From a virus (taxonomy: Duplodnaviria > Caudoviricetes): a stretch of 64,000 nucleotides of DNA. The stretch spans positions 128,001 through 192,000 of the IMG/VR virus record IMGVR_UViG_3300044551_000092. One strand, written 5' to 3'. Every line of letters begins with the position of its first letter. The first letter of the stretch is position 1. The notes beneath the pieces are model-generated. The model was not told where the DNA came from. It was given only the letters and a program-made list of their open reading frames with translations, and did not search any database. Both the position numbers and the translations under genes were made by a program. Shown here piece by piece: positions 33,048-63,570 of the stretch.

Positions 33048-33278
33048 ATGGAATTGATTCAGGCATATCTAAAAAAAAGCAAAACGGCCAAAGATAAACG
33101 ACTGATTTCGAAATTGAAAAATTCTACTAATTTCAGAGACTATGGTCAACACATGAAAAAGTTATATGATCTGCAAAAAATGACTCAAGCTCTTACTGTT
33201 AATCAGCGGTTTATGCATGAATTGCAAAATAATCCGGTCCTTGATTTTCTTGCGGCACTCGGTGAGACCAATGATTGA
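33048..33278 (+). CDS. small protein with MELIxxYLxK N-terminus
   Basis: MELIQAYLKK; AAGGTG SD. Confidence 0.65.
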   Translation: MELIQAYLKKSKTAKDKRLISKLKNSTNFRDYGQHMKKLYDLQKMTQALTVNQRFMHELQNNPVLDFLAALGETND

Positions 33279-34026
33279 ACTGACGGCTGCGGATCTCTAT
33301 CAAATTCGTCACTGCGGACTTCAGTATTTCTTAATGAAACACAGTCATAAGACCGCTGCAAAATCAAACATTGAACGGGTAAGGGAGATAGTTACAGCCT
33401 CGATTAACTATTATTATCAACAATTAGAGGCTGGACAAGTACTCTCTTTTAAAGAATTGCAATTTAAGTTTCTATCCATTTGGAATCGAAACAAAGATCT
33501 TACCAATCCAGTAACAATTAAAACAAAGATTGAAGGCGCTACCCGGACACAATATAAAAAGACCGGTCTCCGGTTTCTGGATCATTTTTATCGAAGGCAG
33601 GAGCTGCATGTCGATCAAATCATTGCCCGACAAGTTGGTTTTCGGGTGCCGATTGTTACCGGCCAGTTCTACATAAAAGGGAGTATCCCTTACATTACTG
33701 AAACGCCGAATGGAAAAATCTCCATTATCAACTATCGAATGGGCACTAAGAAATATGATACTTTCTGGCAAAAAACCGATCTGGACATTACCTTGCAAGC
33801 TTATGCTTATCAATCTATTTTTAAAAAACAACCAGATAATATCTTTGTCCATCAGCTTTATTCTGACACGTATGCTTACTTGAAACGCGGCAAAACTGAT
33901 TTCCGGCGAATGATTAAAATAATCAAAAACGTAAAACAGCTTATTGATACGGGGAACTTTTTTCCGAATGAGGGATTTTTATGTAGTAGCTGTCCAGTCA
34001 GAAGCCTCTGTGCTAACTGGCATTAG
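33271..34026 (+). CDS. PD-(D/E)XK/Cas4-like fold protein, catalytic residues apparently lost
   Basis: N-terminal Cys plus CSSC...C; GSIP and IINYR where G-x-I-D and D-x-K are expected. Confidence 0.6.
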   Translation: MIELTAADLYQIRHCGLQYFLMKHSHKTAAKSNIERVREIVTASINYYYQQLEAGQVLSFKELQFKFLSIWNRNKDLTNPVTIKTKIEGATRTQYKKTGLRFLDHFYRRQELHVDQIIARQVGFRVPIVTGQFYIKGSIPYITETPNGKISIINYRMGTKKYDTFWQKTDLDITLQAYAYQSIFKKQPDNIFVHQLYSDTYAYLKRGKTDFRRMIKIIKNVKQLIDTGNFFPNEGFLCSSCPVRSLCANWH

Positions 34027-34042
34027 AAAAGGAGAATGAGAA

Positions 34043-34504
34043 ATGAGGAAAGACTGGATTCATTATTTTATGGATATTGCAGAACTGACCAGCCAACGTG
34101 CTACTTGTCCAAGACTGCATGTTGGCTGTGTGATTGTTAAAGACCATCGGATAGTCAGTACCGGCTATAATGGAAGCATTCATGGGCAACCGCACTGTGA
34201 GGACGCAGGATGCCTTCTGGACGAAGAGGGACACTGTATACGTACAATTCACGCTGAAATGAACGCAATTCTTCATGCGGAGCGTGAGAGCCTCATAGGA
34301 GCAACAGCATATGTTACCGACGAGCCGTGCGCAAACTGTATGAAAACACTAAATCAAGCTGGCATTAAAAATGTTATATATAAGAATGCTTATCCCAATC
34401 CCTATAATCAATATTTTATAGACGGTATGGCTGTTTTTAAACTTACAGATTTAGAGAAGAGGGAGTCTATTGGAACTCATTCGCAGTTATCTGAACAGAC
34501 TTGA
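34043..34504 (+). CDS. dCMP deaminase (ComEB-like)
   Basis: RATC.R..VG, STGYNG, HAEMNA, PCANC. Confidence 0.92.
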   Translation: MRKDWIHYFMDIAELTSQRATCPRLHVGCVIVKDHRIVSTGYNGSIHGQPHCEDAGCLLDEEGHCIRTIHAEMNAILHAERESLIGATAYVTDEPCANCMKTLNQAGIKNVIYKNAYPNPYNQYFIDGMAVFKLTDLEKRESIGTHSQLSEQT

Positions 34505-34907
34505 TTTACTTCAGATTCGCAAAGAACTTAGTTCTCAAATGAGCTTAGAAGGCATAACCCATCATATTTTTCTGAGAAGTCTTTTTGCAACTGATAATAG
34601 TCACAATAGGCAGGAACCCACTTGTAAAATCGAAGAGTCCGTAATCAGGGACGATTTTAAACTTGTAAATGAACTGTTAAACAAAAAAATTTATTTCTAT
34701 TCAAGAAAACAATTACTTGGATTTTTAGCTGACCAGGAAAAAGCGCAAGCTAACAACTATGAGAATAGGCCGATCTTTACCTGTTTCCAAAAACTTATGC
34801 CTTGTAAATTGGTTAATATTATTTTTTGGGTTAACGGGTACAAGGATGATAAAACAATCGTTACGACCGGGAGTGCCGCGCATGGCATCCATGATATCGT
34901 GAGGTGA
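34470..34907 (+). CDS. hypothetical protein with MELIxxYLxR N-terminus
   Basis: TTG start, GGGAG SD, MELIRSYLNR; paralogue of the next gene. Confidence 0.65.
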   Translation: MELIRSYLNRLDLLQIRKELSSQMSLEGITHHIFLRSLFATDNSHNRQEPTCKIEESVIRDDFKLVNELLNKKIYFYSRKQLLGFLADQEKAQANNYENRPIFTCFQKLMPCKLVNIIFWVNGYKDDKTIVTTGSAAHGIHDIVR

Positions 34908-34912
34908 TTAAA

Positions 34913-35245
34913 ATGGAGCTTATTCAGTACTATGTTAATCGAAATTACTTAATTAACACTCGAAATCAAATGCAAGAGAAGATAAAAAAGTTTATAACCG
35001 GGCATTGCCCCATTATTGAATACGATATTGGACTACTGACAGAAATTCTAAAGAATGATGATAAACGTATTCATTGGTCTACGAAACGACTACAGCATTA
35101 TCTAAAAGTTCAAGAAGCCATTCAGATCAAAAAAAATAAAAAAATTCGTCACCCTCTCACATATTTTCAGGATGGAGATCAAAAATCTAGTAAAAAAGAG
35201 TATCCAGTGATAATGATGGGGGGTAATCTCTATCGAGCTCATTAA
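34913..35245 (+). CDS. hypothetical protein with MELIxxYVxR N-terminus
   Basis: GAGGTG SD, MELIQYYVNR. Confidence 0.65.
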   Translation: MELIQYYVNRNYLINTRNQMQEKIKKFITGHCPIIEYDIGLLTEILKNDDKRIHWSTKRLQHYLKVQEAIQIKKNKKIRHPLTYFQDGDQKSSKKEYPVIMMGGNLYRAH

Positions 35246-35471
35246 TGCTTACTTACTAAGAAATGAAATTCTTTCTTGGGAAAGTATGTATAATAATTTA
35301 AGTAAAAGATTGATTCTACAGCATTATTTAGAGCTATCCGCCTCTGGAATGGACGCTCTTTTTAATCATTATAAAATAGCTAAAGTATTAAAAGTTTGGG
35401 AAAACGAAACAACGATTTCCTGGTTTTATCAGCACTTGAAAATGATTTTACTCGAATATAAAGAGTCATGA
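35232..35471 (+). CDS. hypothetical protein with (M)ELIxxYLxR N-terminus, probable ATC start
   Basis: In-frame extension of ORF 35286 gives IELINAYLLR; G-rich SD 7 nt upstream; in-frame TGA at 35214. Confidence 0.55.
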   Translation: MELINAYLLRNEILSWESMYNNLSKRLILQHYLELSASGMDALFNHYKIAKVLKVWENETTISWFYQHLKMILLEYKES

Positions 35472-35528
35472 TATAATAAAAGTTGGATATAGAGAACCTC
35501 TGACTATTAGATTAGGAGGTTTTCTTTC

Positions 35529-36437
35529 ATGAAATCGTGTGTATTTAGCTTTGATGAAACGAAAGCAGAAGAAATCAAGCAGCTTGCACTTGGCCAAGAT
35601 TATATTGATTGGGGTTTGCATACAATCATGGCGCCAGTGGCTTGGAAAACAACGAAAGGTAATGGAGTTAAAGTGGCAGTGCTTGATACCGGCGTGGATC
35701 AGACACATCCTGATCTGGAGGCCAACATTGCCGCAGTGGTTGATTTTACAGGATCACCTTCTGGCACAAATGATATTCAAGGCCATGGCACCCATTGTGC
35801 TGGAATTATTGCAGGGACCGATACGGGAACCGGAATTGTCGGTGTCGCGCCACAGGTTAAATTATATTGTGGGAAAGTCCTTGGAGACAATGGAACCGGA
35901 TCAATAGAGAACATCGTCAAGGGGTTGCAGTGGGCAATACAGGAAAATGTCGATGTCATCAGTATGAGTCTCGGCACTACTCAACAACCTCCAGAAAAAC
36001 TTCACGAATCCATTTTACAGGCTATTACAAAGGGCATTACCATTGTAGCGGCGACTGGGAATAATAATGGACCTGTAGGATGGCCGGCACTTTACGATGA
36101 AGTCATTGCTGTGAGTGCTCTAAATGAAGACTATGATCGGGCAGATTTTTCAAATTATGGGATAAAAAATGAGATCATTGCCCCGGGTGTTGATATCCTA
36201 TCGACATATAAAAATCACACCTATGCTCGCTTATCGGGGACATCGATGGCCACGCCAATTATTTCAGCCTCCGCCGCTTTGTATATTTCCCGCTTTAAAG
36301 AGCTGAATGATCAGCGGCCAAGCGTTCAACAAATTCACACGGCACTGGACCGGGCAACTGTTGATCTCGGCGGGGCAGGAAAAGATGAATACTATGGTTT
36401 TGGCCTCATAAATTTAGCTAAACTTTTTAAAAATTAA
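35529..36437 (+). CDS. subtilisin-family (S8) serine protease without signal peptide
   Basis: VAVLDTG, HGTHCAG, AATGN, SGTSMATP catalytic motifs; AGGAGG SD. Confidence 0.95.
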   Translation: MKSCVFSFDETKAEEIKQLALGQDYIDWGLHTIMAPVAWKTTKGNGVKVAVLDTGVDQTHPDLEANIAAVVDFTGSPSGTNDIQGHGTHCAGIIAGTDTGTGIVGVAPQVKLYCGKVLGDNGTGSIENIVKGLQWAIQENVDVISMSLGTTQQPPEKLHESILQAITKGITIVAATGNNNGPVGWPALYDEVIAVSALNEDYDRADFSNYGIKNEIIAPGVDILSTYKNHTYARLSGTSMATPIISASAALYISRFKELNDQRPSVQQIHTALDRATVDLGGAGKDEYYGFGLINLAKLFKN

Positions 36438-36488
36438 TTAATACTATAGTTTCAGGCAAATTGGCTTATATTTAGTAAAAATATGGTG

Positions 36489-36516
36489 ACAGAGGGAAAT
36501 TACCTCTGTTTTTTTC
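36489..36516 (+). terminator. intrinsic terminator
   Basis: ACAGAGG / CCTCTGT stem followed by a T run. Confidence 0.7.
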
Positions 36517-36540
36517 CTATTTATCGTATATAATGAATTT

Positions 36541-36735
36541 ATGAAACGAAACACAATCCGAACACAAGAAAGTGTGGCGATAACATTGTCTAAAAAAATG
36601 ATTCATCTCGTCGAGGATGCAGGATGGGAGATCGATAAAAAAGAATTAGAGGAGGCTGTCAAAACCAATGCCAAGAACAAATATCGGGGCAAGAATAAAG
36701 AAGAAAAACAACAATCTCAAGATAATAACAAATAA
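36541..36735 (+). CDS. small hypothetical protein
   Basis: 64 aa ORF after a TATAAT; no clear SD. Confidence 0.35.
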   Translation: MKRNTIRTQESVAITLSKKMIHLVEDAGWEIDKKELEEAVKTNAKNKYRGKNKEEKQQSQDNNK

Positions 36736-37123
36736 TAAACCTGTTCTAATTAAAACAGACAAAAGTAACGGATTAAGTCGAATAACGATGACATTGGAGC
36801 CTGAAAAATTCGAAGAATTTAGTTCTGATTATCGCTTAACTTTCGATGAGTATTGCGATGCTATTGATAAGGCTGCTTCAGAAGAGTTTGATGACTGGTC
36901 AGAACTTCGTCTTAGAGATCAAATTGCTATGAGTCAAGATGCACTCATTACGAAAACAATGATTAAATACGCGAAAACAGAAGAAAACCTAGACCTTTCT
37001 AAATTCAATGGCAACAACTTGGAATACATCAAGCGTTATGATACGGAAGGAACCTTTATCGGCGAGGCCATTCGACTAACGCTTTTATCCATTGATCAAA
37101 ATAATATACAGGTAACTAAATGA
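36668..37123 (+). CDS. hypothetical protein
   Basis: GAGGAGG SD, 151 aa. Confidence 0.65.
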   Translation: MPRTNIGARIKKKNNNLKIITNNKPVLIKTDKSNGLSRITMTLEPEKFEEFSSDYRLTFDEYCDAIDKAASEEFDDWSELRLRDQIAMSQDALITKTMIKYAKTEENLDLSKFNGNNLEYIKRYDTEGTFIGEAIRLTLLSIDQNNIQVTK

Positions 37124-37716
37124 CTCCATTAAAATTGCCGATGATGATGTATGGGAGATTCCGTCACGTTCGGGTAAAACATGACAAAGAAGGGCACACA
37201 GTCTATCTTAAAAATACCGCAGGAGAAATTCGTTTAACACCCAAAGGTAAAAAAATACCTGTTAAAGAAAAAGTATGGATCAACCATGTACGTGGAAAAA
37301 GTAATGGAATCTATCCTTCGGTAAATCACATTTATAAGCGAATCGCTCATGGTAGACAGCAGTTAAACCAGCCGGCTCTTGATCTGTTAGAAACATGGAA
37401 AGCGCTTGCTTACGAATGGGCTCAAGAAACCCATTGGGATCATTCATATAATGGAAAAGTCGTTGTAGAATTAACAGCCTATTTTCCAAATGACTTAAAA
37501 AAGAGAGACACTAATAACGTATTTAAACTATTAATGGATGCTCTGGAGGGACCAATCTATCCAAACGATGTTAATGCATTGCCGCGTGTCCTGGATTTTC
37601 ACACAGTTGAAGAAGAAGAACCTTACTTCATTCTCAATATCTATCGTAAGGAGGATGAAGCTATTGTCATGCGTGAACGACACCGAAGCCTGTATAGCCC
37701 TTTATCAAAAGTATAA
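37120..37716 (+). CDS. rusA: RusA-family Holliday junction resolvase
   Basis: PSVN..Y and RDTNN.FKLLMDAL.G.IY.ND motifs. Confidence 0.8.
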   Translation: MTPLKLPMMMYGRFRHVRVKHDKEGHTVYLKNTAGEIRLTPKGKKIPVKEKVWINHVRGKSNGIYPSVNHIYKRIAHGRQQLNQPALDLLETWKALAYEWAQETHWDHSYNGKVVVELTAYFPNDLKKRDTNNVFKLLMDALEGPIYPNDVNALPRVLDFHTVEEEEPYFILNIYRKEDEAIVMRERHRSLYSPLSKV

Positions 37717-38446
37717 GCAATCACAGCCGCTTATAAATTGTTTTGAATTGATGTTTAAGAAATATACGATTCTTTTTAAGGATAAAATCATTGATTTTCA
37801 TGATTATAACCAACGCTTTTTTATCAGTTTTTATCTAAAAGAAAAAAAGGATCGATCAAATTTTAGAAAAGGCAGTTACCATGCTAAAGAACTTGTCAGG
37901 AAAGCATACAGGGTATTGGATCTAATACGCCCAGCTTTTGAAGGGGTCGCAAATATCTATGGTGAATTAATTATTCCATTTCTACAATGCGCAGAACATT
38001 ATAAAATCAAGTCATCTTTTCAAAACTATATCTACATTGCTTATAAATACTATTTAAAACGGCATATAGATCAGTTAATCAAAAGTTATTTATCTTTTCA
38101 TACACGAAATCTTCCAATGGCTCAAGAAAATATTATCAAATTAGAGGAATCGCTTAAAATTTATCCTCAATCAACATTGCAATTAGATCTGGACAATGAT
38201 CTTGCCTTAACTCATCCAGATTGGATCAATGGGAAACTAGCTCAATATCCGTTTAATCAACTAAATAGTCTGGAACGGCGAATTTTAGTAGAAACCTATA
38301 CAAATACCGAGGCCAAGACAGATCGCGATATCGCAATAATTGTTGGCTATCACCCCAAATCAATCAGTCGAATTAGAAAAAAAGTAATCCACAAAATTAT
38401 TCATTATCTTCAGGAGGCCAAATTATGGCAACAGCAGCCGGCATAA
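37538..38446 (+). CDS. phage sigma-70-like factor (true start probably near 37665)
   Basis: Region 4-like LNSLERRIL...TDRDIAIIVGYHPKSISRIRKK; region 2-like FL.CA..Y...SF.NYI. Confidence 0.6.
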   Translation: MLWRDQSIQTMLMHCRVSWIFTQLKKKNLTSFSISIVRRMKLLSCVNDTEACIALYQKYKQSQPLINCFELMFKKYTILFKDKIIDFHDYNQRFFISFYLKEKKDRSNFRKGSYHAKELVRKAYRVLDLIRPAFEGVANIYGELIIPFLQCAEHYKIKSSFQNYIYIAYKYYLKRHIDQLIKSYLSFHTRNLPMAQENIIKLEESLKIYPQSTLQLDLDNDLALTHPDWINGKLAQYPFNQLNSLERRILVETYTNTEAKTDRDIAIIVGYHPKSISRIRKKVIHKIIHYLQEAKLWQQQPA

Positions 38447-38649
38447 TGACTATCAGTAGAGATTCAGAGGATTTACTCTTCACTGTCCATAGATTTGAGA
38501 AACTAATGGAGATTGAGCCCCACGATTCATTTGTCAAGATTGATACCGTGTGCTATCCACACCGATTATTTGAAAAAATTATCCTAATGAATAAAAGACA
38601 AATTAATGAAGTCTTAGATAATAAGGCCCTATGCACTGAAGCTCAATAA
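38425..38649 (+). CDS. hypothetical protein
   Basis: AGGAGG SD, 74 aa. Confidence 0.55.
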   Translation: MATAAGIMTISRDSEDLLFTVHRFEKLMEIEPHDSFVKIDTVCYPHRLFEKIILMNKRQINEVLDNKALCTEAQ

Positions 38650-38772
38650 ACCAACTAAATTATTTATATATAAATTCATAATATTTTGCCTATTATCTAT
38701 TGTTTTTAAGAAAATATTAGATATAATAAAAGTAGTAGTAACACAGATGTAACACAAAAATGGGGCAATTTC

Positions 38773-39615
38773 ATGGGGACATTTGACGATCAGATTAACC
38801 ATTATTTGATCGAAAAACAATATCACAGTACCAGGCCGATGCGGAATATTATTCATCCATCTTGCATTGGAATGTGTCAGCGACGTATTGTATTCGACAT
38901 GATGATGGTTCCAAAAGAAATGCAAAAAGTACAGGTCCTAAAAATTTTCGAGAACGGTACCCGGATGCATACCTGCTATCAAACATGGTTAGAAAAAATC
39001 GGCATTTTGGTTGAAGCAGAACGTAAACTCGATAAAGGCGCCATTTCAGGACATTGTGATGCGATCGTCAAGACGTATCCATTCACATGTCCAAAGGGAC
39101 AAGAGACCATTATTGAATTTAAAAGTGCTGCAAATGATAGCTTTAATTGGATGCAGAAGAAGAAAAAGCCGAAAACAGAGCATTATCTACAAATTATGTT
39201 CTACATGTATCTTAGCGGCATTCATCAAGGGATTATTTTTGTAGAAAATAAAGATTCACAAGAGACATTAGAATTTCCAATAACGTATCGTCCTGAAACC
39301 GGAAAGCAACTTTATGATCGGGCCAATTACTTAATCGACTTAGCCAAAAAGCGAAAGCTTCCGGATCGTCCTCAGAAATATGTACCCAGCTGTTATAAGT
39401 GTTCTATCTGTGATTATGCTTTTTATTGTCACAATCAAAGCATCAAGCGAAACGGAGAGGTTCGCTACCCCATACCTTTCCGTTTCGGGACTCCCGCTTA
39501 CATTCATGCTCTTGAAATCATCGATGCCGTTAATAATCATAAGCCCATCCCAGATGTCATCAAGGGAAACACTTTAGGAGACTTATACAGCGAAACGGCA
39601 GCAATGAATCAATAA
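38773..39615 (+). CDS. solo Cas4-like PD-(D/E)XK exonuclease
   Basis: HPS...C.R, G...H, GHCDA, IIEFKS, Q..FY, CxxC...C Fe-S cysteines. Confidence 0.8.
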   Translation: MGTFDDQINHYLIEKQYHSTRPMRNIIHPSCIGMCQRRIVFDMMMVPKEMQKVQVLKIFENGTRMHTCYQTWLEKIGILVEAERKLDKGAISGHCDAIVKTYPFTCPKGQETIIEFKSAANDSFNWMQKKKKPKTEHYLQIMFYMYLSGIHQGIIFVENKDSQETLEFPITYRPETGKQLYDRANYLIDLAKKRKLPDRPQKYVPSCYKCSICDYAFYCHNQSIKRNGEVRYPIPFRFGTPAYIHALEIIDAVNNHKPIPDVIKGNTLGDLYSETAAMNQ

Positions 39616-39638
39616 TCTAATGATTAGAGGGATCATGA

Positions 39639-39890: not shown

Positions 39891-39909
39891 GTCGATAGAG
39901 GAGGCCATT

Positions 39910-42900
39910 ATGGAGGGGGATCAAGAACCTATCGTCCATTTACACGTTCACAGCGAAAACAGCTTATTGGACGGCTTATCAAAAATAGATGAACTGATTA
40001 CACGAGCAAAAGAAATCGGCAGCCCCGCATTAGCATTAACCGACCATGGAACGTGTGCTGGAATTCCAAGCTTTATTCGTAGTTGTAAAAAAGCTGGAAT
40101 TAAACCCATTCCTGGCTGCGAAGCCTATATGACAAAGAATCGTCTCGTTAAAAGCGAACAGCTTTCAGACATGCGAACTAATCTTTGTTTGAAATATCAT
40201 ATTTTAAACACAAGTAAAAAGCCTGATATGAAACGTTTAGGGAAGTTTCTTCGCGGGATGTTGAAAAACCCATCCACGTTTAAAGAACAGGCTGATGATT
40301 TATTAAAAGACTACTATATGCAAAATACGGTAGATCTTTTCAGCATTTTTGACGCACAACCAACGAAGCAACAAATGCAGGCTAATTTCCTGCACGACAT
40401 AAATAACTACCTGGACTTTGAGACCTATCATTTGCTATTAATCCCTATCGATAATGCAGGCCTGGCTGACCTGTACGAAATTGTATCGGATGCACACATT
40501 AATGGTTTTTACGGCAAGCCACGTACGGATCTGCAAATTATACAAGAAAAAGGTTTAGGCAAACACATGATAGCAACGTCAACTTGTCTGGGTGGTTATT
40601 TTTCTCATTTGTGCTTGGCAGGGCGAATTGAACAAGCTAAGAAATATATTAAAAAATGCAAAAATATTTTTTACGGTTATTATCTAGAAAAACAGGCTTC
40701 GCAACTTCCAAAACAAATTCAATTAAATGCAATTATAGATCAACTGGCAGTTGAAACACATACGCCAAAAATCGTAACTTGCGATGTGCACTTTGCTCGA
40801 AAAGAAGATCATGATACACAAGATGCCTTAATTTGCATGTCAATCAACAAATGCCTGAACGACCCCGATCGCTATCATTACGCTCCGGATTACTATTTAA
40901 AAACGGCCGGCGAGATTCGCCAACAAGTGAATGACGACGAAGCAATCGCCAATACACTTGAAATTGCCAAACAAGTAAATGTGTCTGAGCCTAAAAAGCC
41001 ACTGTTTCCAAAAATGCAGGTAGCGAAGGGGGCCACAGCAGAAGCATTACTTCGGCATCAAGCCTGGCAGAATCTTTTTCAAATGTGCCTCAAGCATTCA
41101 GAGTGGAATATAGAAAGCTATTCTCAACGATTAGCATATGAGCTGAATGTGATCTGTAAGATGCAATTTGCTGACTATTTCTTAATTGAGTCAGACATGA
41201 TCAATGCGGCAAATGATGCTGGTTATCTAACGGGGCCGGGACGTGGATCGGGTGCCGGCTCACTGACTTGCTATGTAATGGGGATTACTAAAGTTGATCC
41301 ACTCAAATATGGGTTGCTGTTTGAACGATTTCTAAATCCTGAACGGGCCGGGTATCCTGACATAGATGTCGATTACAGCTACTCAGCTGCTCGATGGACG
41401 CAAAATTATCTAAAAAAAACATATGGAAATGATCGAGTCGCTCAAATTGGAACGACGGGGACGATGGCAGCACGTCAAGTTATTCGCGCCGTAGGGAAAG
41501 TGCTTGGTTATGATCTGGACACACAGGATCGATTTGCCAAGGCGATTCCCGACGCCCCACATACCAAACTTGCTGGCGCCTACGAGACTGAAGAAACGGT
41601 GAGAGCGATGGCCAGCCGTTATCCTAAGTGGTGGGACCTGGCAAAAAAGTTAGAGGGCCACGCAAAGAGCCTCGGCGTCCATGCTTCAGGAATTGTTCTA
41701 TCACCAGTAAAAATCGACCGTGTCGTTCCGCTTAGGCGGGATAAAGAGGGGCTTGAAACAACCCAATTTGATATGGAACATATTGAAGATTACTTAGTCA
41801 AATTTGATTTGCTTAAATTAGATACGTTGGATCTCATCCAAAACACGTTAAACAATGCCGGAATAAACGGAAAAATTAACATTAATGAACTGGATTTAGA
41901 AGATCCACGTGTTTATAAAGAAATCTATCAAGCCAATAATCTAGCTGGTATCTTTCAATGTGAATCTAAACTGTTTCAAGATATTATACGTGTTATTCAA
42001 CCAACAAACTTCAATGATTTAAGCGTACTTGTTGCTTTGGGGCGACCAGGGCCGCTAGATTTTGTTGAATCCTATGCTAATCGAAAACATCGAAAGGAAG
42101 AAGAACAATATTCTTTTCCCGAATTAAAACCTGTACTTAAAGAAACCTACGGGATTTTAGTTTATCAGGAACAGGTAATGGCAATGTCTCGTATTTTAGG
42201 CGGATTGACGCTTGGCCAAAGTGACATGATTCGAAAGGGCATCGGGAAGAAAATACCGGATCTTCTGAACCGTTGGCTTGATCTCATGATCTACGGCAGT
42301 AAAAAGTATAAGATGCAACATCAACAGCTGGTGAAGCAATTTCCAAAAAAGGATATGATCCCTTTAAGTGAAGAAGGCAAGCCTTCATTCTGGGTCGATT
42401 ATGATTATAAAAATGTCCCCGAAGTACAGGGGGCTGTCAACCGGGGCTTTAATCTGGAAAAACTGCTTGTCTTAAAAGAGCAATGGATTAAGTTCGGCAA
42501 TTATTGTTTTAATAAAAGCCATAGCGTGTGTTACGGTATGATCTCATTTATCACGGCTTGGCTAAAATGTTACTATCCGGTAGAATTTATGGCCGCACTG
42601 CTCACTCAATCCGAAAATAAAAAAGACAAGAAGAAGCAACCAAAAAACGTGGTTTATATTCAAGAATGTGAAAAAATGGGTATTCTTGTTCTACCTCCTA
42701 ACATTAAACTATCAGAACGAAAATGGACGCCAATTCACAAAGACGGGAAAAGCTATATTCTCATGGGGCTTTCCGGTATAGCCGGCATTAAAGAAGAAAC
42801 GGTTGAAGAAATCAAAAGCTATGATCTGTCTAAAGTTAAGACGTTTGAACAGTTCCTTTGGTGTATCAACCAATATAAAACTGAACACAAGAAAAGCAGA

Positions 42901-43389
42901 CTGAATAAAACGATCGTCATGACTTTGATTAAGTCTGGTGCCCTCGATTGTCTTAGCAGGAATCGCAATAAAATGTTGAAACAATATGCAGAAGCGCAAG
43001 GCAGAGAAGTACCGAAACTGCCGGCCAACACTTCTAAAAAAACAATCATTCAATTTGAGAGGGAAACCATCGGTATGAGTTTAACTTACAAGTCACGCTG
43101 GTCGCAGCTACCACCGGACACGCAAAACATTCAATTTACCGGCTTTATTATTGAAATTAAACCCTTTAAGGCCAAAAGGGATCAAAAAGAACATTGCCGT
43201 TTAATCATTGAAACACAGGAAGATGAAATCAACTGTCTCGTATTTAATCGTACTTGGAAGCAGTATGAAAAACAACTTGTGGTTGGCAATAAAGTCACTT
43301 TTGTTGGCAATAAATCAGACGATACATTTCTAGTCAATCAAATAAAAGTACACTCGCCAGACGAGACAGACTTCTATCAGGAGGCGTGA
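39910..43389 (+). CDS. dnaE: DNA polymerase III alpha subunit (DnaE type) with PHP domain
   Basis: HLHVHSENSLLDG, TDHG, GRGSGAGS, PDIDVD, KFDLL.L, FNKSH; GGAGG SD before ATG 39910. Confidence 0.95.
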   Translation: MEGDQEPIVHLHVHSENSLLDGLSKIDELITRAKEIGSPALALTDHGTCAGIPSFIRSCKKAGIKPIPGCEAYMTKNRLVKSEQLSDMRTNLCLKYHILNTSKKPDMKRLGKFLRGMLKNPSTFKEQADDLLKDYYMQNTVDLFSIFDAQPTKQQMQANFLHDINNYLDFETYHLLLIPIDNAGLADLYEIVSDAHINGFYGKPRTDLQIIQEKGLGKHMIATSTCLGGYFSHLCLAGRIEQAKKYIKKCKNIFYGYYLEKQASQLPKQIQLNAIIDQLAVETHTPKIVTCDVHFARKEDHDTQDALICMSINKCLNDPDRYHYAPDYYLKTAGEIRQQVNDDEAIANTLEIAKQVNVSEPKKPLFPKMQVAKGATAEALLRHQAWQNLFQMCLKHSEWNIESYSQRLAYELNVICKMQFADYFLIESDMINAANDAGYLTGPGRGSGAGSLTCYVMGITKVDPLKYGLLFERFLNPERAGYPDIDVDYSYSAARWTQNYLKKTYGNDRVAQIGTTGTMAARQVIRAVGKVLGYDLDTQDRFAKAIPDAPHTKLAGAYETEETVRAMASRYPKWWDLAKKLEGHAKSLGVHASGIVLSPVKIDRVVPLRRDKEGLETTQFDMEHIEDYLVKFDLLKLDTLDLIQNTLNNAGINGKININELDLEDPRVYKEIYQANNLAGIFQCESKLFQDIIRVIQPTNFNDLSVLVALGRPGPLDFVESYANRKHRKEEEQYSFPELKPVLKETYGILVYQEQVMAMSRILGGLTLGQSDMIRKGIGKKIPDLLNRWLDLMIYGSKKYKMQHQQLVKQFPKKDMIPLSEEGKPSFWVDYDYKNVPEVQGAVNRGFNLEKLLVLKEQWIKFGNYCFNKSHSVCYGMISFITAWLKCYYPVEFMAALLTQSENKKDKKKQPKNVVYIQECEKMGILVLPPNIKLSERKWTPIHKDGKSYILMGLSGIAGIKEETVEEIKSYDLSKVKTFEQFLWCINQYKTEHKKSRLNKTIVMTLIKSGALDCLSRNRNKMLKQYAEAQGREVPKLPANTSKKTIIQFERETIGMSLTYKSRWSQLPPDTQNIQFTGFIIEIKPFKAKRDQKEHCRLIIETQEDEINCLVFNRTWKQYEKQLVVGNKVTFVGNKSDDTFLVNQIKVHSPDETDFYQEA

Positions 43390-43391
43390 GG

Positions 43392-43760
43392 ATGGAACTG
43401 ATCAGCGCCTATCTTATGCGTAAAAAAAGCCGTACTGCTGTATTTCATATGACAGTTAATGGAAAAAACATTATCAGTCGTTTAGTGGAAATCCAAATCA
43501 TGCCGACAGTATCTCCTATGTATGGAATAGGTGACATCAATCCAATCGCAAATTCACTAAATGCCTATGAATATGAGTTTAAATTAATAGACATTGACAA
43601 GACAGATTTGGTACTTATTACACAAGCTTATCAAAATTTAGAACTTGTAGACGTATTCTTAAACTTACCGAAGAGAGGAAAAGAAAAGTCACTCAAAGGC
43701 ACTATCACAGATATATCTAGTTTAGATAATGACGAAATTATCTTAACCCTTCGAGTGTAA
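43392..43760 (+). CDS. hypothetical protein with MELIxxYLxR N-terminus
   Basis: MELISAYLMR; overlapped by GGAGG SD at the end of dnaE. Confidence 0.65.
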   Translation: MELISAYLMRKKSRTAVFHMTVNGKNIISRLVEIQIMPTVSPMYGIGDINPIANSLNAYEYEFKLIDIDKTDLVLITQAYQNLELVDVFLNLPKRGKEKSLKGTITDISSLDNDEIILTLRV

Positions 43761-43787
43761 ACCCATAAAGAGGAGTGTTCATTCATC

Positions 43788-52399: not shown

Positions 52400-52402
52400 C
52401 TC

Positions 52403-58054: not shown

Positions 58055-58261
58055 CAAAAGACTTCCCCCTATTTTAAGCTAAATCCAAATAGAACTATTT
58101 TTATTATACCGAGTACAATTTTTATTGCCAGTAATTTAACATATTTATCCATTTAACCATATTAAGGGTTCTTTTTGTGCTGTTTTATATATTCTTTTGG
58201 ATTTTGGTTCTTAAAGAGAATATACTAACAATAAACAAACAATAATTGGAGGCGATGAAAG

Positions 58262-58609
58262 GTGCAAACATTCCTGACAAAGGAACGTGCCATATTAAAA
58301 GTATGCCTAATCCACGAAATTGAAAAAAGCCCTTCCTATGGATGGGCTTATCACTCAACGATCGCTGAACAGATCCCTGGATTTAAACCAAGTAAATCTG
58401 AGATATATAAATCACTTCATGAATTAGCAGCAGCTGATATTGTTAAGCGCTCAAGGAGAAAAAGAAATGACGAGGGATTGCAGGAAATTATTGTTTATAC
58501 ATTCACATCTGGAGGCTATGCCAAAGCACAAAGATATAAAAAATTAGTTTATGATGACCTGATTAGGAGTCAAACTATGATAAAGCACTTCTTAAGTACG
58601 ATTTTTTAA
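58262..58609 (+). CDS. rtp: replication terminator protein homologue
   Basis: FL.K.RA.LK, YG, GFKP..SE.Y.SLHEL, LQE...Y.F, A..YKK....DL.R match B. subtilis RTP. Confidence 0.85.
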   Translation: MQTFLTKERAILKVCLIHEIEKSPSYGWAYHSTIAEQIPGFKPSKSEIYKSLHELAAADIVKRSRRKRNDEGLQEIIVYTFTSGGYAKAQRYKKLVYDDLIRSQTMIKHFLSTIF

Positions 58610-58619
58610 GTACCCCCCC

Positions 58620-59828
58620 CTATCTTCTATTTCCGAAGTATATTTTTTTTGCTTTTTTTTCTATTGCCGGGAATTCTTTTTGGATATAATAATAATCAAA
58701 TTCAGGCATTTGATGATCTTCAAAATAATCTCTTAATCGGCCTTGAAGCCACCAATCTGGATAAACTTCACGGTTATCGATATTTCTGACATTTTTTCTC
58801 TCGCAATAATCTAGAGCTAATTTCTGAAAGCGTTGCCGCTTTTTTTCTTCTTCAGTTAATGAATGATCATCCGGTTTAGTAGAAGGAACGGGTTCATCAG
58901 CATCTTGATCTTTTTCAGTTGGTACTAAAGCATAATTATTTTTAATAGCAGCTACAATAAAAGCAGCTAAATTTTTAATTTTTGTTTGTTTTTTTAAACT
59001 AAATTGTAAATTGGCCTGGATTACATATGAATCATATTTCTTAACCAGAGCTGCAGCTTGGAATCTGTCCACCCCACACTTTTCCAATTCATTAATTAAA
59101 TCTTGATTAACCAAAGTTTTTATTTTTTTTGGCTTTTCCTGTACATGAAAAATAAATCCAATAATTCGTCGGCTTTCTTTTACGTCTTCGTATGAAAATG
59201 TAATATCTGTTAATTCGTTAATATGTTTCTGTGCATCGTTTAGTATCCGCAATTTGAAATGGCTGACACGTTTATATTTGGTTTTTGGTAGCATAAGTAT
59301 TTCTCGTAAATCCTTTATTGTCATTGAAAAAGCGCGCTGAAATTCGTGTTCCTTCAAAAGTTCATAAATAACCATATCATAAGGTGAGCTGAGCCGCAGG
59401 ATATGTTTGAGTTGAAATTTATAATAATGATCTTTTAAATTTAATAAATACGGTTTCAATTTATCTGTAAATCTTAAAATAACTTCGCCATCATCATATT
59501 CTGAATAATCGGCCCAGTTAATATATTTTTCTTTCTTCCCTTCTGTAATCCTAACCACTTTGGTCTGCAGACCGAGAACGGTTTTTTTAACTTGCTCATA
59601 ATAATTTTTAGATTTGATGCCTAAGATATTAGCAATTCGTTTAACACTCATTTTTTTAAATTTAAACTCATTATCTTTTGGACCGATGTCGGCAATAAAT
59701 ATATAAATGATCCGTCGTTCGTCCAGCGTCAAATCCTGCACGGTTTCGATTAATTGATTGGATTTTTTTACTAGGTTATTCTCGCTAATTGTGACAGGAA
59801 GTACTTCATGTTCGAGTGATGCGACCAT
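58620..59828 (-). CDS. Rep_3-family plasmid replication initiator
   Basis: VKKSNQLIE...LTLDERRI, LKPYLLNLK..Y, L.S.Y...IYELLK, LREIL, EIN-like HINELTD; GAGGAG SD before ATG 59828. Confidence 0.9.
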   Translation of the reverse strand: MVASLEHEVLPVTISENNLVKKSNQLIETVQDLTLDERRIIYIFIADIGPKDNEFKFKKMSVKRIANILGIKSKNYYEQVKKTVLGLQTKVVRITEGKKEKYINWADYSEYDDGEVILRFTDKLKPYLLNLKDHYYKFQLKHILRLSSPYDMVIYELLKEHEFQRAFSMTIKDLREILMLPKTKYKRVSHFKLRILNDAQKHINELTDITFSYEDVKESRRIIGFIFHVQEKPKKIKTLVNQDLINELEKCGVDRFQAAALVKKYDSYVIQANLQFSLKKQTKIKNLAAFIVAAIKNNYALVPTEKDQDADEPVPSTKPDDHSLTEEEKKRQRFQKLALDYCERKNVRNIDNREVYPDWWLQGRLRDYFEDHQMPEFDYYYIQKEFPAIEKKAKKIYFGNRR

Positions 59829-60555: not shown

Positions 60556-60590
60556 AAAAGGCCTATAGCAATAAGTTATAGGCCCTTCTT
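60556..60590 (-). terminator. terminator of the - strand operon
   Basis: GGCCTATA / TATAGGCC stem with AAAA on the + strand (U tract on the - strand). Confidence 0.65.
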
Positions 60591-60606
60591 AATTTTAAAT
60601 TATTAT

Positions 60607-61257: not shown

Positions 61258-61262
61258 TAACT

Positions 61263-61493
61263 CTATCTCCTTAAACTTAGTGGTGGGATTTCTTCATGAA
61301 TAAAATCAACAAATACTTTATCTTTTCTATTTTTCAACCAATTAATATAAGCGACATTTTCAGCACCATAATATCCTCGCCGTTTAGCCGCTGGTACTTG
61401 CTTTTGAAACATATCCCATAAAAAGATGTGCTCCCGTGGATGTAGCTGCGCAAATGTATTTGTGATAAAAATGGATCGATTAATATCAATCAT
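61263..61493 (-). CDS. hypothetical protein
   Basis: AGGAGG SD before ATG 61493. Confidence 0.55.
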   Translation of the reverse strand: MIDINRSIFITNTFAQLHPREHIFLWDMFQKQVPAAKRRGYYGAENVAYINWLKNRKDKVFVDFIHEEIPPLSLRR

Positions 61494-62211
61494 GACGACA
61501 ACCTCCTTTTTGTATCTTATATTGATGATATTTCCCATGATTAATTTCAAGGCAGTTCAATTGATACCCAAAACAGCACCCACCATCTATGCCGATTTTT
61601 AAGGAATTAAAATAAGGATCTGGAGAATTTTGCAAATTGATCGTTGGCGTATGACCAAAGACAACAATTTTCTTTTGCTCGTGGTTATTCGAAAGAAATG
61701 GTTCACGGTTCCATAAGAAGTCTTGACGAGAACTTTTTTTCCAATCGTAAAGAAAGGGATTAATCCCAGCGTGAACGAAGATGTGTTTCTCCCCTTCATA
61801 ATACAGGGGAAGTCCAGTCAGAAAATGTACTATATTGCGATATTCTTCTTTAATGAATTCTGCCCACTTTATATATTTCTCAAAATAAATGGGTTTATCA
61901 ACAATCGTGGGAATGAAACTCTTAATAGTTTCCATACCCCCGTTCTGAAAATACATAACTCTTAGGTCATTGTCTTTCGGCAGGTTCAGATACCTAAGAA
62001 ACAAATCATCATGATTCCCTCTGATGGCAATAGCGCCATTCTGAACAAGTTCTGCGACTTTAAGAATAACTGGTTTGCTGTCTGGTCCGCGATCCATATA
62101 ATCACCAAGAAGAATCAGCTGATCTTCCTTGGCATTATATTGTACCTTATTCAGCAGCTCCATAAACTCTTGATAACAGCCGTGAATATCGCTAATCACT
62201 AGTGTACGCAT
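61486..62211 (-). CDS. PPP-family metallophosphatase (PrpA/lambda-PP/ApaH-like)
   Basis: SDIHG, GDYMDRG, RGNHD, FVHAG, FGHTP, IDGG. Confidence 0.92.
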   Translation of the reverse strand: MRTLVISDIHGCYQEFMELLNKVQYNAKEDQLILLGDYMDRGPDSKPVILKVAELVQNGAIAIRGNHDDLFLRYLNLPKDNDLRVMYFQNGGMETIKSFIPTIVDKPIYFEKYIKWAEFIKEEYRNIVHFLTGLPLYYEGEKHIFVHAGINPFLYDWKKSSRQDFLWNREPFLSNNHEQKKIVVFGHTPTINLQNSPDPYFNSLKIGIDGGCCFGYQLNCLEINHGKYHQYKIQKGGCRHD

Positions 62212-62217
62212 AAAACT

Positions 62218-62679
62218 TCACTCTCTTTTCACTTCAGGTACAATTAATTTCTCAGACATACAACGTGTCATTGTTGAAATGGCTAGAGCAAACATATAGC
62301 ACGTGGAACTTAATGAAACCTCAGGCCGGCAGGTCACAACAATTTCATCACCATCAACAACTTTATAATCTGAATAAAAATAATTACTCATAAAATAATG
62401 AACCTGTTTTTGAAACAATTGTTCGGAGATCTCCTGTCCTCTCATCCATAATTCTGAGTAAACATGGCCGTCATCAGTTAATGTCATATGCCCATCCGTA
62501 TATTCGGTTAAGTAAAGACCGATGAAATCACTCATATCGTCCACAATGGGAACCTGAATTTCAAACGAGGTGGTTATATCTGGATTCTGTTTTAGATAAT
62601 CGGTACCTTTGACTTCAATGACGGTAAACTTGATCCATTCGTCGTGTAATATATTTTTTACTTGAGCAAGCGTTAGCAT
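62218..62679 (-). CDS. DUF1828-like protein
   Basis: I.VP..D...D.I.LY.......LTDDG...SEL. Confidence 0.5.
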   Translation of the reverse strand: MLTLAQVKNILHDEWIKFTVIEVKGTDYLKQNPDITTSFEIQVPIVDDMSDFIGLYLTEYTDGHMTLTDDGHVYSELWMRGQEISEQLFQKQVHYFMSNYFYSDYKVVDGDEIVVTCRPEVSLSSTCYMFALAISTMTRCMSEKLIVPEVKRE

Positions 62680-62699
62680 AGCCTTTACACCACCATTTA

Positions 62700-63119
62700 T
62701 TAAAATGAGAAAGATAACTGATTTTCATCAATTTCTGAATTAAAGACGCCAATCAAACGACGATTTTTAACAACATAAAGCTGTTTACCTAAACAATACT
62801 CGTCATCATCAAGATTAACTGTATCGCCAATTAAGAGAGAACACAGTGAACGAACCTGCTGTGCGTTAATTCTGGGTTGTTCAATCAATTGTGCTTCACA
62901 ACAATTCACTTCAACTTTGCACGTTGCGGCTACATAGAGATGGTATTTTGCACCGCACAAAGGGCAAACAATATCTTCTTTTTCCCGATCGTCCTCAAGA
63001 TCTTTAGCCAATTCAATCGTTTGATCGTAGATATTAGTATGAATGCGATGTCCACACGTGCAAAGCAAATATCCATCCGGTAGAGTATCTTTATAATCCC
63101 GTTTATTCATGGTTTTCAC
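62700..63119 (-). CDS. zinc-ribbon hypothetical protein
   Basis: CTCGH...CPLCG; ends in NQLSF. Confidence 0.55.
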   Translation of the reverse strand: MKTMNKRDYKDTLPDGYLLCTCGHRIHTNIYDQTIELAKDLEDDREKEDIVCPLCGAKYHLYVAATCKVEVNCCEAQLIEQPRINAQQVRSLCSLLIGDTVNLDDDEYCLGKQLYVVKNRRLIGVFNSEIDENQLSFSF

Positions 63120-63570
63120 CTGCGTTCAACCAATTTTGAAAATCCTGAGAATACTCGAATATTGGCAAACTCGAAAGATAAGCCGACGTTTCTGCTGGCG
63201 ACAGTTCTGTTTCATAAATACCTTCCATGACTTCACTTATACCTCGTTGATCAAGTAACTCATATAAAAGAGAATAGATCTCTTCCGTGTAATCTGATTC
63301 TTCCACCCCGTCTGGAACATGATAACCATAACCGTCTTGTAGAGTTCTTTCTGCTTCCCAAAAATCGGACTCGACAATGTACACGGCAATTGTACCTTCA
63401 TTAGGCGAATGGCCGAAGGCAAATATAAAATGAAGATTCATTTCTAAATTTGCTAGTATTTGATTATTAGCTGTTGATTTGGCACTAATACCTGTCTCAT
63501 TTTTTGATTTTTCTTCTTCGGCTTTTTTTAGCCATTCTAAACGTTCTAAATAAGGCTTCAATAATTCCAT
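63103..63570 (-). CDS. acidic hypothetical protein with MELLxxYLxR N-terminus
   Basis: MELLKPYLER; GGGGGG SD. Confidence 0.65.
   Translation of the reverse strand: MELLKPYLERLEWLKKAEEEKSKNETGISAKSTANNQILANLEMNLHFIFAFGHSPNEGTIAVYIVESDFWEAERTLQDGYGYHVPDGVEESDYTEEIYSLLYELLDQRGISEVMEGIYETELSPAETSAYLSSLPIFEYSQDFQNWLNAGENHE

What the first reader, a model, noticed from the sequence alone, without database searches (positions are those of the whole stretch)
33048..63570. Six small proteins share an N-terminal MELIxxYLxR decapeptide: a candidate targeting or docking signal
Seen: the N-termini are MELIQAYLKK (33048), MELIRSYLNR (34470), MELIQYYVNR (34913), (I)ELINAYLLR (35232), MELISAYLMR (43392) and MELLKPYLER (63570, - strand). 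The codons differ synonymously (GAA/GAG; TTG/CTC/CTT/CTG/TTA; TAT/TAC), so the conservation is at protein level. Only 34470 and 34913 (perhaps 35232) resemble each other downstream; the others look unrelated and lie in different gene clusters. Known: T4 internal proteins share a roughly 10-residue N-terminal capsid-targeting sequence on unrelated bodies. Inference: this amphipathic helix is a portable tag that sends diverse cargo to one partner (capsid or scaffold, the nearby S8 protease, or a host target), which would be an undescribed phage cargo-addressing system.
Basis: partly seen in the sequence, partly recalled or inferred. Interest (0 to 1): 0.88.

Follow-up and report, generated by a model that had tools for sequence, protein, structure and literature searches.

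The report
Shared N-terminal tag on phage proteins
A family of 200-kb phages of Gram-positive bacteria puts the same eight-residue peptide (Met-Glu-Leu-Ile/Val-x-x-Tyr-Leu/Ile) at the start of 3-26 otherwise unrelated accessory proteins per genome, including an anti-defence protein and nucleotide enzymes, which points to a portable address tag whose receptor is still unknown.

Summary
All six window ORFs start with the motif. The 206-kb genome has 11 such ORFs, and in a six-frame scan the motif is almost confined to ORF starts.

The conserved core is eight residues, M-E-L-[IVLM]-x-x-Y-[LIVM]. The Arg/Lys at position 10 is not conserved. The tag heads about 100 proteins in eight related phage genomes (major capsid protein at least 66% identical). 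One of these is a 198-kb contig of Alicyclobacillus shizuokensis. The tag is absent from the more distant cultured relatives 0305phi8-36 and Moorella MTATph1.

The bodies are mostly unrelated: 65 strict cases fall into 45 BLAST clusters. Known domains begin only after the tag: Tad2-like (anti-Thoeris), dUTPase, MazG-like, and probably a terminase-like ATPase and zinc ribbons. One homologue of a tagged body has no tag. All six Leu codons occur at position 3, so selection acts on the protein.

A portable docking tag is therefore well supported (about 0.8). Its destination is not shown. Loading into the phage head, as with the T4 capsid-targeting sequence, is my leading guess (about 0.35). No cleavage site follows the tag, and the genes sit in replication operons.

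The scan has noted analogous tags with other sequences in other phages.

The parts
33048..33278 (+). Tagged ORF, 76 aa, MELIQAYLKK...; ATG start 19 nt after a terminator-like hairpin (33011-33029); its 3' end overlaps the start of the PD-(D/E)XK (Cas4-like) nuclease gene
   Evidence: no Pfam or PHROG family; no homologue even inside the clade. A tagged gene sits directly upstream of the Cas4-like gene in 6 of 7 genomes compared.
34470..34907 (+). Tagged ORF, 145 aa, (TTG)ELIRSYLNR...; overlaps the 3' end of the dCMP-deaminase-like gene
   Evidence: orphan body
34913..35245 (+). Tagged ORF, 110 aa, MELIQYYVNR...
   Evidence: orphan body
35232..35471 (+). Probable tagged ORF, 79 aa, (ATC)ELINAYLLR...; non-canonical start after a GGGGGG Shine-Dalgarno-like run; start uncertain (the first ATG is at 35286)
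43392..43760 (+). Tagged ORF, 122 aa, MELISAYLMR...; starts 2 nt after the DnaE stop
   Evidence: AF2 single-sequence model: residues 1-10 pLDDT 39 with a short helix at 4-8, then a beta-rich body at moderate confidence. A tagged gene follows DnaE (gaps of 2 to about 750 nt) in 6 genomes.
63103..63570 (-). Tagged ORF, 155 aa, MELLKPYLER...
   Evidence: The only database match is itself, on three near-identical sludge contigs.
33271..34026 (+). PD-(D/E)XK (Cas4-like) nuclease, a conserved neighbour; not itself tagged
   Evidence: Pfam PF12705, E 2.5e-8; synteny
35529..36437 (+). Subtilisin-type (S8) protease just downstream of the main island of tagged genes; context only, probably not the receptor
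   Evidence: Asp/His/Ser subtilase motifs visible in the translation. Homologue annotated 'protease' in MTATph1. Absent from G023, which still has tags; present in tag-free MTATph1.
39910..43389 (+). DnaE-type DNA polymerase III alpha; anchor gene whose 3' neighbour is tagged

Best explanation
The motif is a portable, eight-residue N-terminal docking tag, M-E-L-[IVLM]-x-x-Y-[LIVM]. It is predicted to form a two-turn amphipathic helix with Leu3, Ile4, Tyr7 and Leu8 on one face and Glu2 beside them. In most cases a Pro/Gly-containing linker follows.

One clade of about 200-kb phages of Bacillota, related to 0305phi8-36, places it at the very start of 3-26 proteins per genome. These are fast-evolving accessory proteins with unrelated bodies.

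Shown: the tag is clade-wide, confined to the N-terminus, selected at protein level, sits outside complete known domains, and is gained or lost independently of the body.

Inferred: all tagged proteins are brought to one common receptor through the tag. My leading guess is that the receptor lies inside the assembling prohead (scaffold, portal or inner capsid surface). Tagged proteins would then be packaged and delivered with the DNA, as the T4 capsid-targeting sequence does for internal proteins.

The confidence given is for the whole statement including the capsid destination. For 'portable docking tag with a common partner' alone I put about 0.8.
For: Restriction to ORF starts and enrichment far above chance.

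Clade-wide presence, in genomes of 35-52% G+C. Relaxed-core counts: G000 9-12, G001 15, G006 10, G011 21, G017 26, G037 12, G023 3. The count is 0 in 0305phi8-36 and MTATph1. An independent DNA-pattern scan gave 52 hits, against 2 for the reversed control, in 34 relatives; all but one hit lay in records with capsid protein at least 68% identical.

An unbiased clustering of all N-termini recovers this tag as the largest or only N-terminal cluster of three or more in six of the seven complete tag-bearing genomes. G023, with only three tags, shows only the tail-fibre trio. Nothing comparable appears in the tag-free relatives.

Bodies are unrelated: 65 strict cases give 45 BLAST clusters, 37 of them singletons. 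Only 3 of 11 G000 bodies have any homologue inside the clade.

The tag precedes complete Pfam domains: dUTPase 36-169 of 171 aa, PRA-PH/MazG 21-100 of 149 aa, and Tad2-like 68-134 of 148 aa in G000's own gene at 61383-61829. It also heads a terminase-like P-loop ATPase family.

Gain and loss: the G023 homologue of that ATPase has no tag, and canonical short Tad2 genes in G006 and G011 have none.

All six Leu codons occur at position 3.

AF2: in a confident model (pLDDT 87.6) the tag is a separate low-confidence helix at residues 2-8 (first ten residues average pLDDT 56), followed by a coil at 9-18. The window protein at 43392 shows the same pattern.

For the capsid destination, the support is by analogy only. 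T-even internal proteins are diverse defence-countering proteins that share only a capsid-targeting sequence (PMC3012670; PMC5694885). Here the tagged genes lie in variable islands and include a Tad2-like anti-defence domain. The hydrophobic positions 4, 7 and 8 match the T4 pattern MKTYQEFIAE (sequence recalled from my own knowledge, and quoted in earlier scan notes).
Against: No experiment or virion proteome exists for any tag-bearing phage.

No conserved cleavage motif follows the tag. The head protease is the HK97 gp4 / P2 gpO type fused to the scaffold, as annotated for 0305phi8-36 gp123, not the T4 gp21 type.

No tagged gene lies in the structural module. Most G000 tagged genes sit in tight operons with replication genes: 2 nt after DnaE, or overlapping the Cas4-like and deaminase genes. 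This suggests early or middle expression.

Tagged proteins are on average slightly acidic (median pI 6.05 against 6.65 for other small proteins), unlike the basic T4 IPII and IPIII.

dUTPase, MazG and an ATPase are not obvious head cargo.

The receptor is unidentified. Phylogenetic profiling left about 45 clade-specific candidates.
Confidence: 0.35

Rival explanations
1. The tag docks the proteins onto an intracellular hub rather than into the virion. Candidates are the phage replication or transcription machinery (the phage's own beta-clamp homologue, an RNA polymerase, a replication factory) or the partition apparatus of the phage-plasmid. The mechanism would resemble the way clamp-binding or PIP-box peptides recruit unrelated proteins.
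For: Tagged genes are embedded in replication operons, after DnaE and around the Cas4-like nuclease and dCMP deaminase.

Cargo includes the nucleotide enzymes dUTPase and MazG, and an ATPase.

The spacing (hydrophobic at 4, aromatic at 7, hydrophobic at 8) resembles a PIP box; this comparison comes from my own knowledge.

The clade encodes its own beta-clamp homologue. A virion RNA polymerase protein is clade-specific (scan note e1-5468780).
Against: Core replisome proteins (DnaE, primase, helicases) do not carry the motif; strict six-frame scans find it almost only on small accessory ORFs.

The clamp homologue is also present in tag-free 0305phi8-36 (PMC3201878).

A sponge protein such as Tad2 has no obvious need for localisation.

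The fixed distance from Met1 and the near-invariant Glu2 suggest that the free N-terminus itself is recognised, which is unusual for clamp motifs.
Confidence: 0.2
2. The tag is a turnover or processing signal: an N-terminal degron or recognition site for the phage S8 protease or a host AAA+ protease. It would give a whole class of accessory proteins a common lifetime.
For: In six of the seven complete genomes of the clade a cluster of tagged genes lies just upstream of the S8 protease gene; in G000, G001 and G037 it is the largest cluster.

G023 lacks both the protease and that island and has only three tags.

Extreme N-terminal position with invariant Met-Glu.
Against: G023 keeps three well-formed tags without the protease. 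MTATph1 has the protease (52-54% identical) but no tags.

I know of no bacterial degron class that matches M-E-L-I-x-x-Y-L.

Keeping a destabilising signal on about 100 proteins, including enzymes, needs a rationale that the data do not supply.
Confidence: 0.12
3. The peptide has no binding partner. It would act in cis, on translation initiation or early elongation, or on N-terminal stability, as an expression cassette reused whenever a new gene is acquired.
For: It always sits at codons 1-8 behind a good ribosome-binding site. It occurs on newly acquired, orphan genes.
Against: Synonymous codons vary freely, so there is no RNA-level constraint.

What is conserved is an amphipathic hydrophobic/aromatic pattern, typical of a binding helix, and it persists in genomes from 35 to 52% G+C.

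Most genes of the same genomes, including highly expressed structural genes, lack it.
Confidence: 0.08
4. All tagged proteins are diverged members of a single paralogous family, and the N-terminal helix is simply its best-conserved element.
For: A subset does look paralogous. Many 70-95-aa proteins read tag, short linker, then a G-D/x-x-[VIY]-x-F-x-Y beta segment. Three tandem G001 genes are clearly related. The Tad2-like group shares a 67-residue N-terminal part.
Against: The tag heads proteins with unrelated, independently defined domains (dUTPase, MazG/PRA-PH, Tad2-like, P-loop ATPase, zinc ribbons), and the domains begin after the tag.

The two AF2 models have different body architectures.

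A homologue of a tagged body lacks the tag.

37 of 45 clusters are singletons.
Confidence: 0.05

Closest known systems
Capsid-targeting sequence (CTS) of phage T4 internal proteins IPI, IPII, IPIII and Alt
   Same: A roughly 10-residue peptide at the extreme N-terminus. It is the only thing shared by otherwise unrelated, fast-evolving accessory proteins encoded in variable loci, some of which counter host defence (PMC3012670; PMC5694885). Similar hydrophobic pattern at positions 4, 7 and 8.
   Different: No sequence similarity beyond that pattern. No Glu-terminated cleavage site. The head protease belongs to a different family (HK97 gp4 / P2 gpO type fused to the scaffold). The phage lineage is unrelated and the host is Gram-positive. 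Packaging is not demonstrated. Up to 26 tagged genes per genome, spread among replication operons.
Cargo-loading peptides of encapsulins and encapsulation peptides of bacterial microcompartments
   Same: Short terminal amphipathic peptides, joined by a flexible linker to unrelated enzymes, dock them to the inside of a protein shell. Encapsulin shells share the HK97 fold with phage capsids (from my own knowledge).
   Different: Encapsulin peptides are mostly C-terminal and Gly/Ser-rich. Microcompartment peptides are about 18 residues long. Neither shows this sequence, and no such shell other than the capsid is known in these phages.
Clamp-binding motifs (bacterial QL[SD]LF; PIP box QxxLxxFF)
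   Same: A short linear motif at protein termini that recruits unrelated proteins to one hub. The spacing of hydrophobic and aromatic residues resembles a PIP box.
   Different: The core replisome enzymes here lack the motif. The consensus differs. The clamp homologue also occurs in a tag-free relative.
Analogous N-terminal tags noted earlier by this scan in other uncultured phages (MKCPEIIKEA, MIKLKDLLKE, MK[HY]LKxF..., M[GS]R[YF]xI[AI]LxK)
   Same: The same anatomy: a roughly 10-residue N-terminal peptide on many unrelated small proteins of one phage lineage (AI notes, not checked by me).
   Different: The sequence, phage lineage and host phylum differ. Several of those tags end in a T4-type cleavage site; this one does not.

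Membership tests
T4-type capsid-targeting sequence | Conserved peptide of about 10 residues at the extreme N-terminus of otherwise unrelated proteins | tested here: met
T4-type capsid-targeting sequence | The peptide ends in the prohead-protease cleavage motif (L/I-x-E) and is removed by a gp21-type protease | tested here: not met
   Information content falls to background after position 8, and there is no conserved Glu or other residue at positions 9-12. The head protease is the HK97 gp4 / P2 gpO type fused to the scaffold.
T4-type capsid-targeting sequence | Tagged proteins are physically present in proheads or virions | not testable with these tools
   No virion proteome exists for any tag-bearing phage. 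The 0305phi8-36 proteome is of a tag-free relative.
T4-type capsid-targeting sequence | Sequence homology to MKTYQEFIAE, and a T4-like (Straboviridae) genome context | tested here: not met
   Only the hydrophobic pattern at positions 4, 7 and 8 is alike. The genome is related to 0305phi8-36 and Moorella MTATph1.
Single diverged paralogue family | Bodies are homologous, sharing one fold or domain | tested here: not met
   dUTPase, PRA-PH/MazG, Tad2-like, P-loop ATPase, zinc ribbon; 37 singleton clusters. The two AF2 models have different architectures.
Sliding-clamp-binding motif | Present on the replicative polymerase and other DNA enzymes that use the clamp; consensus QL[SD]LF or QxxLxxFF | tested here: not met
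   No strict motif in DnaE or other large replication proteins in six-frame scans. The consensus differs.
Tad2 / DUF2829 (applies to G000 gene 61383-61829 only) | Match to Pfam PF11195 above the gathering score | tested here: met
   44.6 bits against a cut-off of 25, residues 68-134. Anti-Thoeris activity itself was not tested.

The most novel reading that the evidence does not exclude
A clade of Bacillota jumbo phage-plasmids has evolved its own cargo-addressing code, independently of T4. A free N-terminal M-E-L-[IV]-x-x-Y-[LI] helix would load up to about 9% of the proteome into the virion for delivery ahead of gene expression. The cargo would include a Tad2-like anti-Thoeris sponge, MazG, dUTPase, an ATPase and dozens of orphan proteins. 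The tag would not be removed, and the head uses an HK97/P2-type protease-scaffold.
Probability: 0.3. Interest if true: 0.8.

Novelty: new variant of a known kind. Interest (0 to 1): 0.66.

Why it matters
If the tag is an address label, it does three things.

- It marks out, by sequence alone, about 100 accessory proteins in this clade that share a destination. Most are orphans with no other functional clue. At least one carries a known anti-defence domain, so the set is a ready list of candidate counter-defence or host-takeover factors for Gram-positive hosts.
- It would show that peptide-addressed cargo sorting, established experimentally only for T4-type phages, arose separately in a phage with a different head-assembly system.
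- A short, transferable tag is directly testable with a tag-reporter fusion, and could be used to deliver proteins with these phages.

If instead the partner is a replication hub or a protease, the tag would still define a previously unnoticed regulatory class of phage proteins.

Tried and rejected
- **Complex prediction**: protease-scaffold plus major capsid protein plus a tagged protein gave 'no answer' (score 0.00, controls not run). This says nothing for or against binding.
- **RNA evidence**: no RNA holder was listed among public runs, so neither expression nor timing could be examined.
- **Contigs of three DNA runs laid on 32900-44000**: only scattered strain differences, none listed inside a tag (the list was truncated). 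Not informative.
- **Homology search with the 63570 protein**: found only itself. The Atlas look-up gave no usable hit.
- **DnaE search of viral contigs**: failed because no exact peptide words matched. The capsid-protein alignment succeeded instead.
- **Phylogenetic profiling for a receptor**: genes present in tag-bearing genomes and absent from 0305phi8-36 and MTATph1 left about 45 candidates. The tag-free relatives are too divergent for this to discriminate.
- **Foldseek** on both AF2 models: no match at E <= 0.001. The 43392 model gave only weak rows to tail-tube or VgrG-like beta barrels.
- **S8 protease as receptor**: rejected as the main idea, because presence of the protease and presence of the tag do not coincide (G023, MTATph1).
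- **RNA- or DNA-level signal** (translational operator, recombination site): rejected because synonymous codons vary freely.
- **Hits in unrelated records**: four further IMG/VR hits to the exact MELIQAY[LF] DNA pattern lie in unrelated records. Three head ORFs of only 12-22 codons, and one (a 4.7-kb record) heads a 300-aa ORF reading MEFIQAYF. Only one such hit was found in each of these records. I take them as chance.
- **ORF at genome 39820-** (MAELVSSYL): lies inside a larger gene in another frame and was dropped.

Full report
**1. The observation.**
The window is bases 128,001-192,000 of a single 206,290-bp virus contig of 39% G+C. The six N-termini read exactly as reported. A six-frame scan of the window for EL[IL]..Y[LVIM] finds only these six places, each within 1-27 codons of an upstream stop.

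In the whole genome a slightly looser pattern finds eleven ORF-start cases:
- Six lie in the window.
- Five lie outside it, at genome starts 36047-, 50924-, 52182-, 61383+ and 200209-.
- Only about four loose non-start matches appear.

Starts are ATG, or TTG in two cases, behind purine-rich ribosome-binding sites. The 35232 ORF has ATC after GGGGGG and is less certain.

Among 277 crude gene calls, 7 carry the strict motif. The in-frame internal rate predicts 0.004, and shuffling residues 2-10 predicts 0.007.

**2. The motif is a clade character.**
No near-identical phage is in the reference collection. By DnaE and the major capsid protein the nearest annotated relatives are Moorella phage MTATph1 and Bacillus phage 0305phi8-36.

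A back-translated MELIQAYL pattern hit six IMG/VR records. Two of them (G001, 198 kb; G003, a 52-kb fragment) proved to be syntenic relatives sharing more than 100 genes at roughly 45% identity. G001 is a contig of Alicyclobacillus shizuokensis NBRC 103103.

A capsid-protein alignment then recovered 37 related IMG/VR records. Scanning 34 of them with a degenerate DNA pattern for M-E-h-h-x-x-Y-h gave 52 matches, against 2 for the reversed control. All but one match lay in records whose capsid protein is at least 68% identical to the query. One match fell in the 41-51% group.

I fetched five more complete genomes plus MTATph1 and 0305phi8-36. Counts of N-terminal occurrences of the relaxed core M-[ED]-[LM]-h-x-x-Y are:

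| Genome | Tagged N-termini |
|---|---|
| G000 | 9 (11-12 with manual starts) |
| G001 | 15 |
| G006 | 10 |
| G011 | 21 |
| G017 | 26 |
| G037 | 12 |
| G023 | 3 |
| MTATph1 | 0 |
| 0305phi8-36 | 0 |

An unbiased clustering of all N-terminal nonapeptides recovers this tag as the largest or only N-terminal cluster of three or more in six of the seven complete tag-bearing genomes. G023, with three tags, is the exception. Nothing equivalent appears in the tag-free relatives.

**3. Anatomy of the tag.**
Across 65 strict cases, Met1, Glu2, Leu3 (62 of 65) and Tyr7 are fixed. Glu2 and Tyr7 were required by the search pattern, but Leu3 was not. Position 4 is Ile or Val and position 8 is Leu or Ile. 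Positions 5-6 are small or polar. Information is at background by positions 9-11. Arg at 10 is only a preference (17 of 65). The first Pro or Gly after residue 8 falls at positions 10-18 in 41 of the 65.

G011 prefers Met at position 4 and tolerates polar residues at 8. Leu3 uses all six Leu codons, and Glu2 and Tyr7 use both of theirs. The genomes span 35-52% G+C. The constraint is therefore on the peptide, not on the RNA or DNA.

In an AF2 model of the one tagged family conserved in all genomes (pLDDT 87.6, pTM 0.81), residues 2-8 form a helix (first ten residues average pLDDT 56). A coil at 9-18 joins it to a confident alpha/beta body. The single-sequence model of the window protein at 43392 shows the same detached, low-confidence tag ahead of a beta-rich body.

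**4. The bodies.**
With the tag removed, the eleven G000 proteins show no significant mutual similarity. This includes 34470 against 34913.

The 65 strict cases fall into 45 BLAST clusters, 37 of them singletons. By iterative search only three G000 bodies have homologues elsewhere in the clade. The six window proteins have no Pfam or PHROG family.

Scanning 99 tagged proteins found known domains that start after the tag:
- dUTPase, residues 36-169 of 171.
- PRA-PH/MazG, residues 21-100 of 149.
- Tad2-like (Thoeris anti-defence 2), residues 68-134 of 148, in G000's own gene at 61383-61829.
- DnaJ-type zinc ribbons.

A roughly 200-aa family with Walker A and B motifs gives only weak matches to terminase large-subunit ATPase domains.

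Portability shows in both directions. The G023 homologue of that ATPase starts MKNIWLK... with no tag. Canonical short Tad2 genes in G006 and G011 are untagged. MazG orthologues in G011, G017 and G037 all keep a tag, though a degenerate one.

A subset of the small proteins (tag, linker, then a GDxVxFxY-like beta segment) probably are paralogues. The paralogue explanation is therefore partly true, but it cannot cover the whole set.

**5. Genomic setting.**
Tagged genes lie outside the structural module, in variable islands between conserved genes. A tagged gene sits immediately upstream of the Cas4-like PD-(D/E)XK nuclease in six of seven genomes. Another follows DnaE in six (gaps of 2 to about 750 nt). 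Their bodies have diverged or been replaced beyond recognition.

In six of the seven complete genomes a cluster of tagged genes lies just upstream of the S8 protease gene. G023 lacks that protease and that island, yet retains three good tags. MTATph1 has the protease but no tags. In G000 most tagged genes are separated from the upstream gene by 35 nt or less, or overlap it, within replication-gene operons.

The head module contains a portal, a protease-scaffold fusion like 0305phi8-36 gp123, a decoration protein and an HK97-type capsid protein.

**6. Mechanism.**
What is shown is a portable N-terminal peptide under strong protein-level selection, structurally separable from bodies of unrelated folds. 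The natural reading is a short linear docking motif for one common receptor. The fixed register from Met1 and the near-invariant Glu2 suggest that the free N-terminus is part of the epitope.

The destination is inferred, not shown. The best analogue is the T4 capsid-targeting sequence, which is the only shared feature of a diverse set of defence-countering internal proteins (PMC3012670; PMC5694885). The Tad2-like cargo, the variable-island location and the 4/7/8 hydrophobic pattern all fit.

Several points count against it:
- There is no cleavage motif after the tag.
- The protease is of a different type.
- The genes sit in replication operons.
- The proteins are slightly acidic.
- Enzymes such as dUTPase are not obvious head cargo.

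I put head loading at about 0.35, an intracellular hub at 0.2, a turnover signal at 0.12, a cis-acting expression effect at 0.08, and pure paralogy at 0.05.

**7. Comparison and novelty.**
Membership in the T4 CTS family fails on cleavage site, protease type and sequence, so this is not a CTS. It may nevertheless work like one.

I found no description of this motif, or of any cargo tag, in the literature on 0305phi8-36-like phages.

Earlier notes of this scan report analogous tags with different sequences in other uncultured phages. Those notes are unchecked leads and I did not use them as evidence. They do mean that this general kind of feature has been seen by the scan before, on other DNA.

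I class the finding as a new variant of a known kind: a new sequence, a new phage lineage with a different head-assembly system, a Gram-positive host, an unusually large repertoire, and cargo with recognisable domains.

Noticed in passing
L011:1783-3267, L011:3279-4784 and L011:7542-8000 (genome 121783, 123279, 127542; just before the window): Three consecutive tail-fibre-region proteins share a different N-terminus, MD[IV][IV]S[LY]xKA..K. The same trio appears in G006 and G023. This is probably a common baseplate-attachment segment of paralogous fibres.
   Followed up: no
L005:772-3742 (genome 772-3742): Four small ORFs all begin MSAWIEI. This probably reflects a DNA repeat rather than real genes.
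   Followed up: no
L008:1383-1829 (genome 61383-61829): The phage's tagged 148-aa protein carries a Tad2-like (anti-Thoeris) domain at residues 68-134, above Pfam's cut-off. G006 and G011 also have separate untagged short Tad2 genes.
   Followed up: partly
L012:6546-7790 (genome 198543-199790, - strand): A 415-aa DUF6094 methyltransferase-like protein next to a tagged gene has a tag-like TEVLRTYLE at residues 11-19, displaced from the N-terminus.
   Followed up: no
window 43392-43760: The moderate-confidence AF2 model of this tagged protein gives only weak Foldseek rows (best E 2e-3, TM 0.5 or less) to phage tail-tube, baseplate-hub and VgrG beta barrels. This is a lead only.
   Followed up: partly
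window 53372-59828: A Type ISP restriction-modification-like helicase-nuclease (1560 aa), an RTP/PadR-like gene and a Rep3 plasmid initiator lie together. Together with a ParB-like partition gene at genome 66858, this fits a phage-plasmid lifestyle.
   Followed up: no
window 41347-42160 (inside DnaE): Contigs from two other samples join across 812 nt here, but with only 21 letters on the shorter side, which is weak. DnaE is split into pieces in relatives G006 and G023, so mobile insertions in this gene seem common in the clade.
   Followed up: no
window 37664-38446: The N-termini of this conserved 260-aa protein's homologues in G001, G017 and G037 read MSDEL[VI]xxYQ, which resembles the tag shifted by two residues. 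It has no Pfam family, and its MTATph1 counterpart is annotated as a transcriptional regulator.
   Followed up: partly
window 33011-33029: A strong terminator-like hairpin with a T run ends 19 nt before the start of the tagged gene at 33048. That gene must therefore be read by terminator read-through or from an unrecognised promoter.
   Followed up: no
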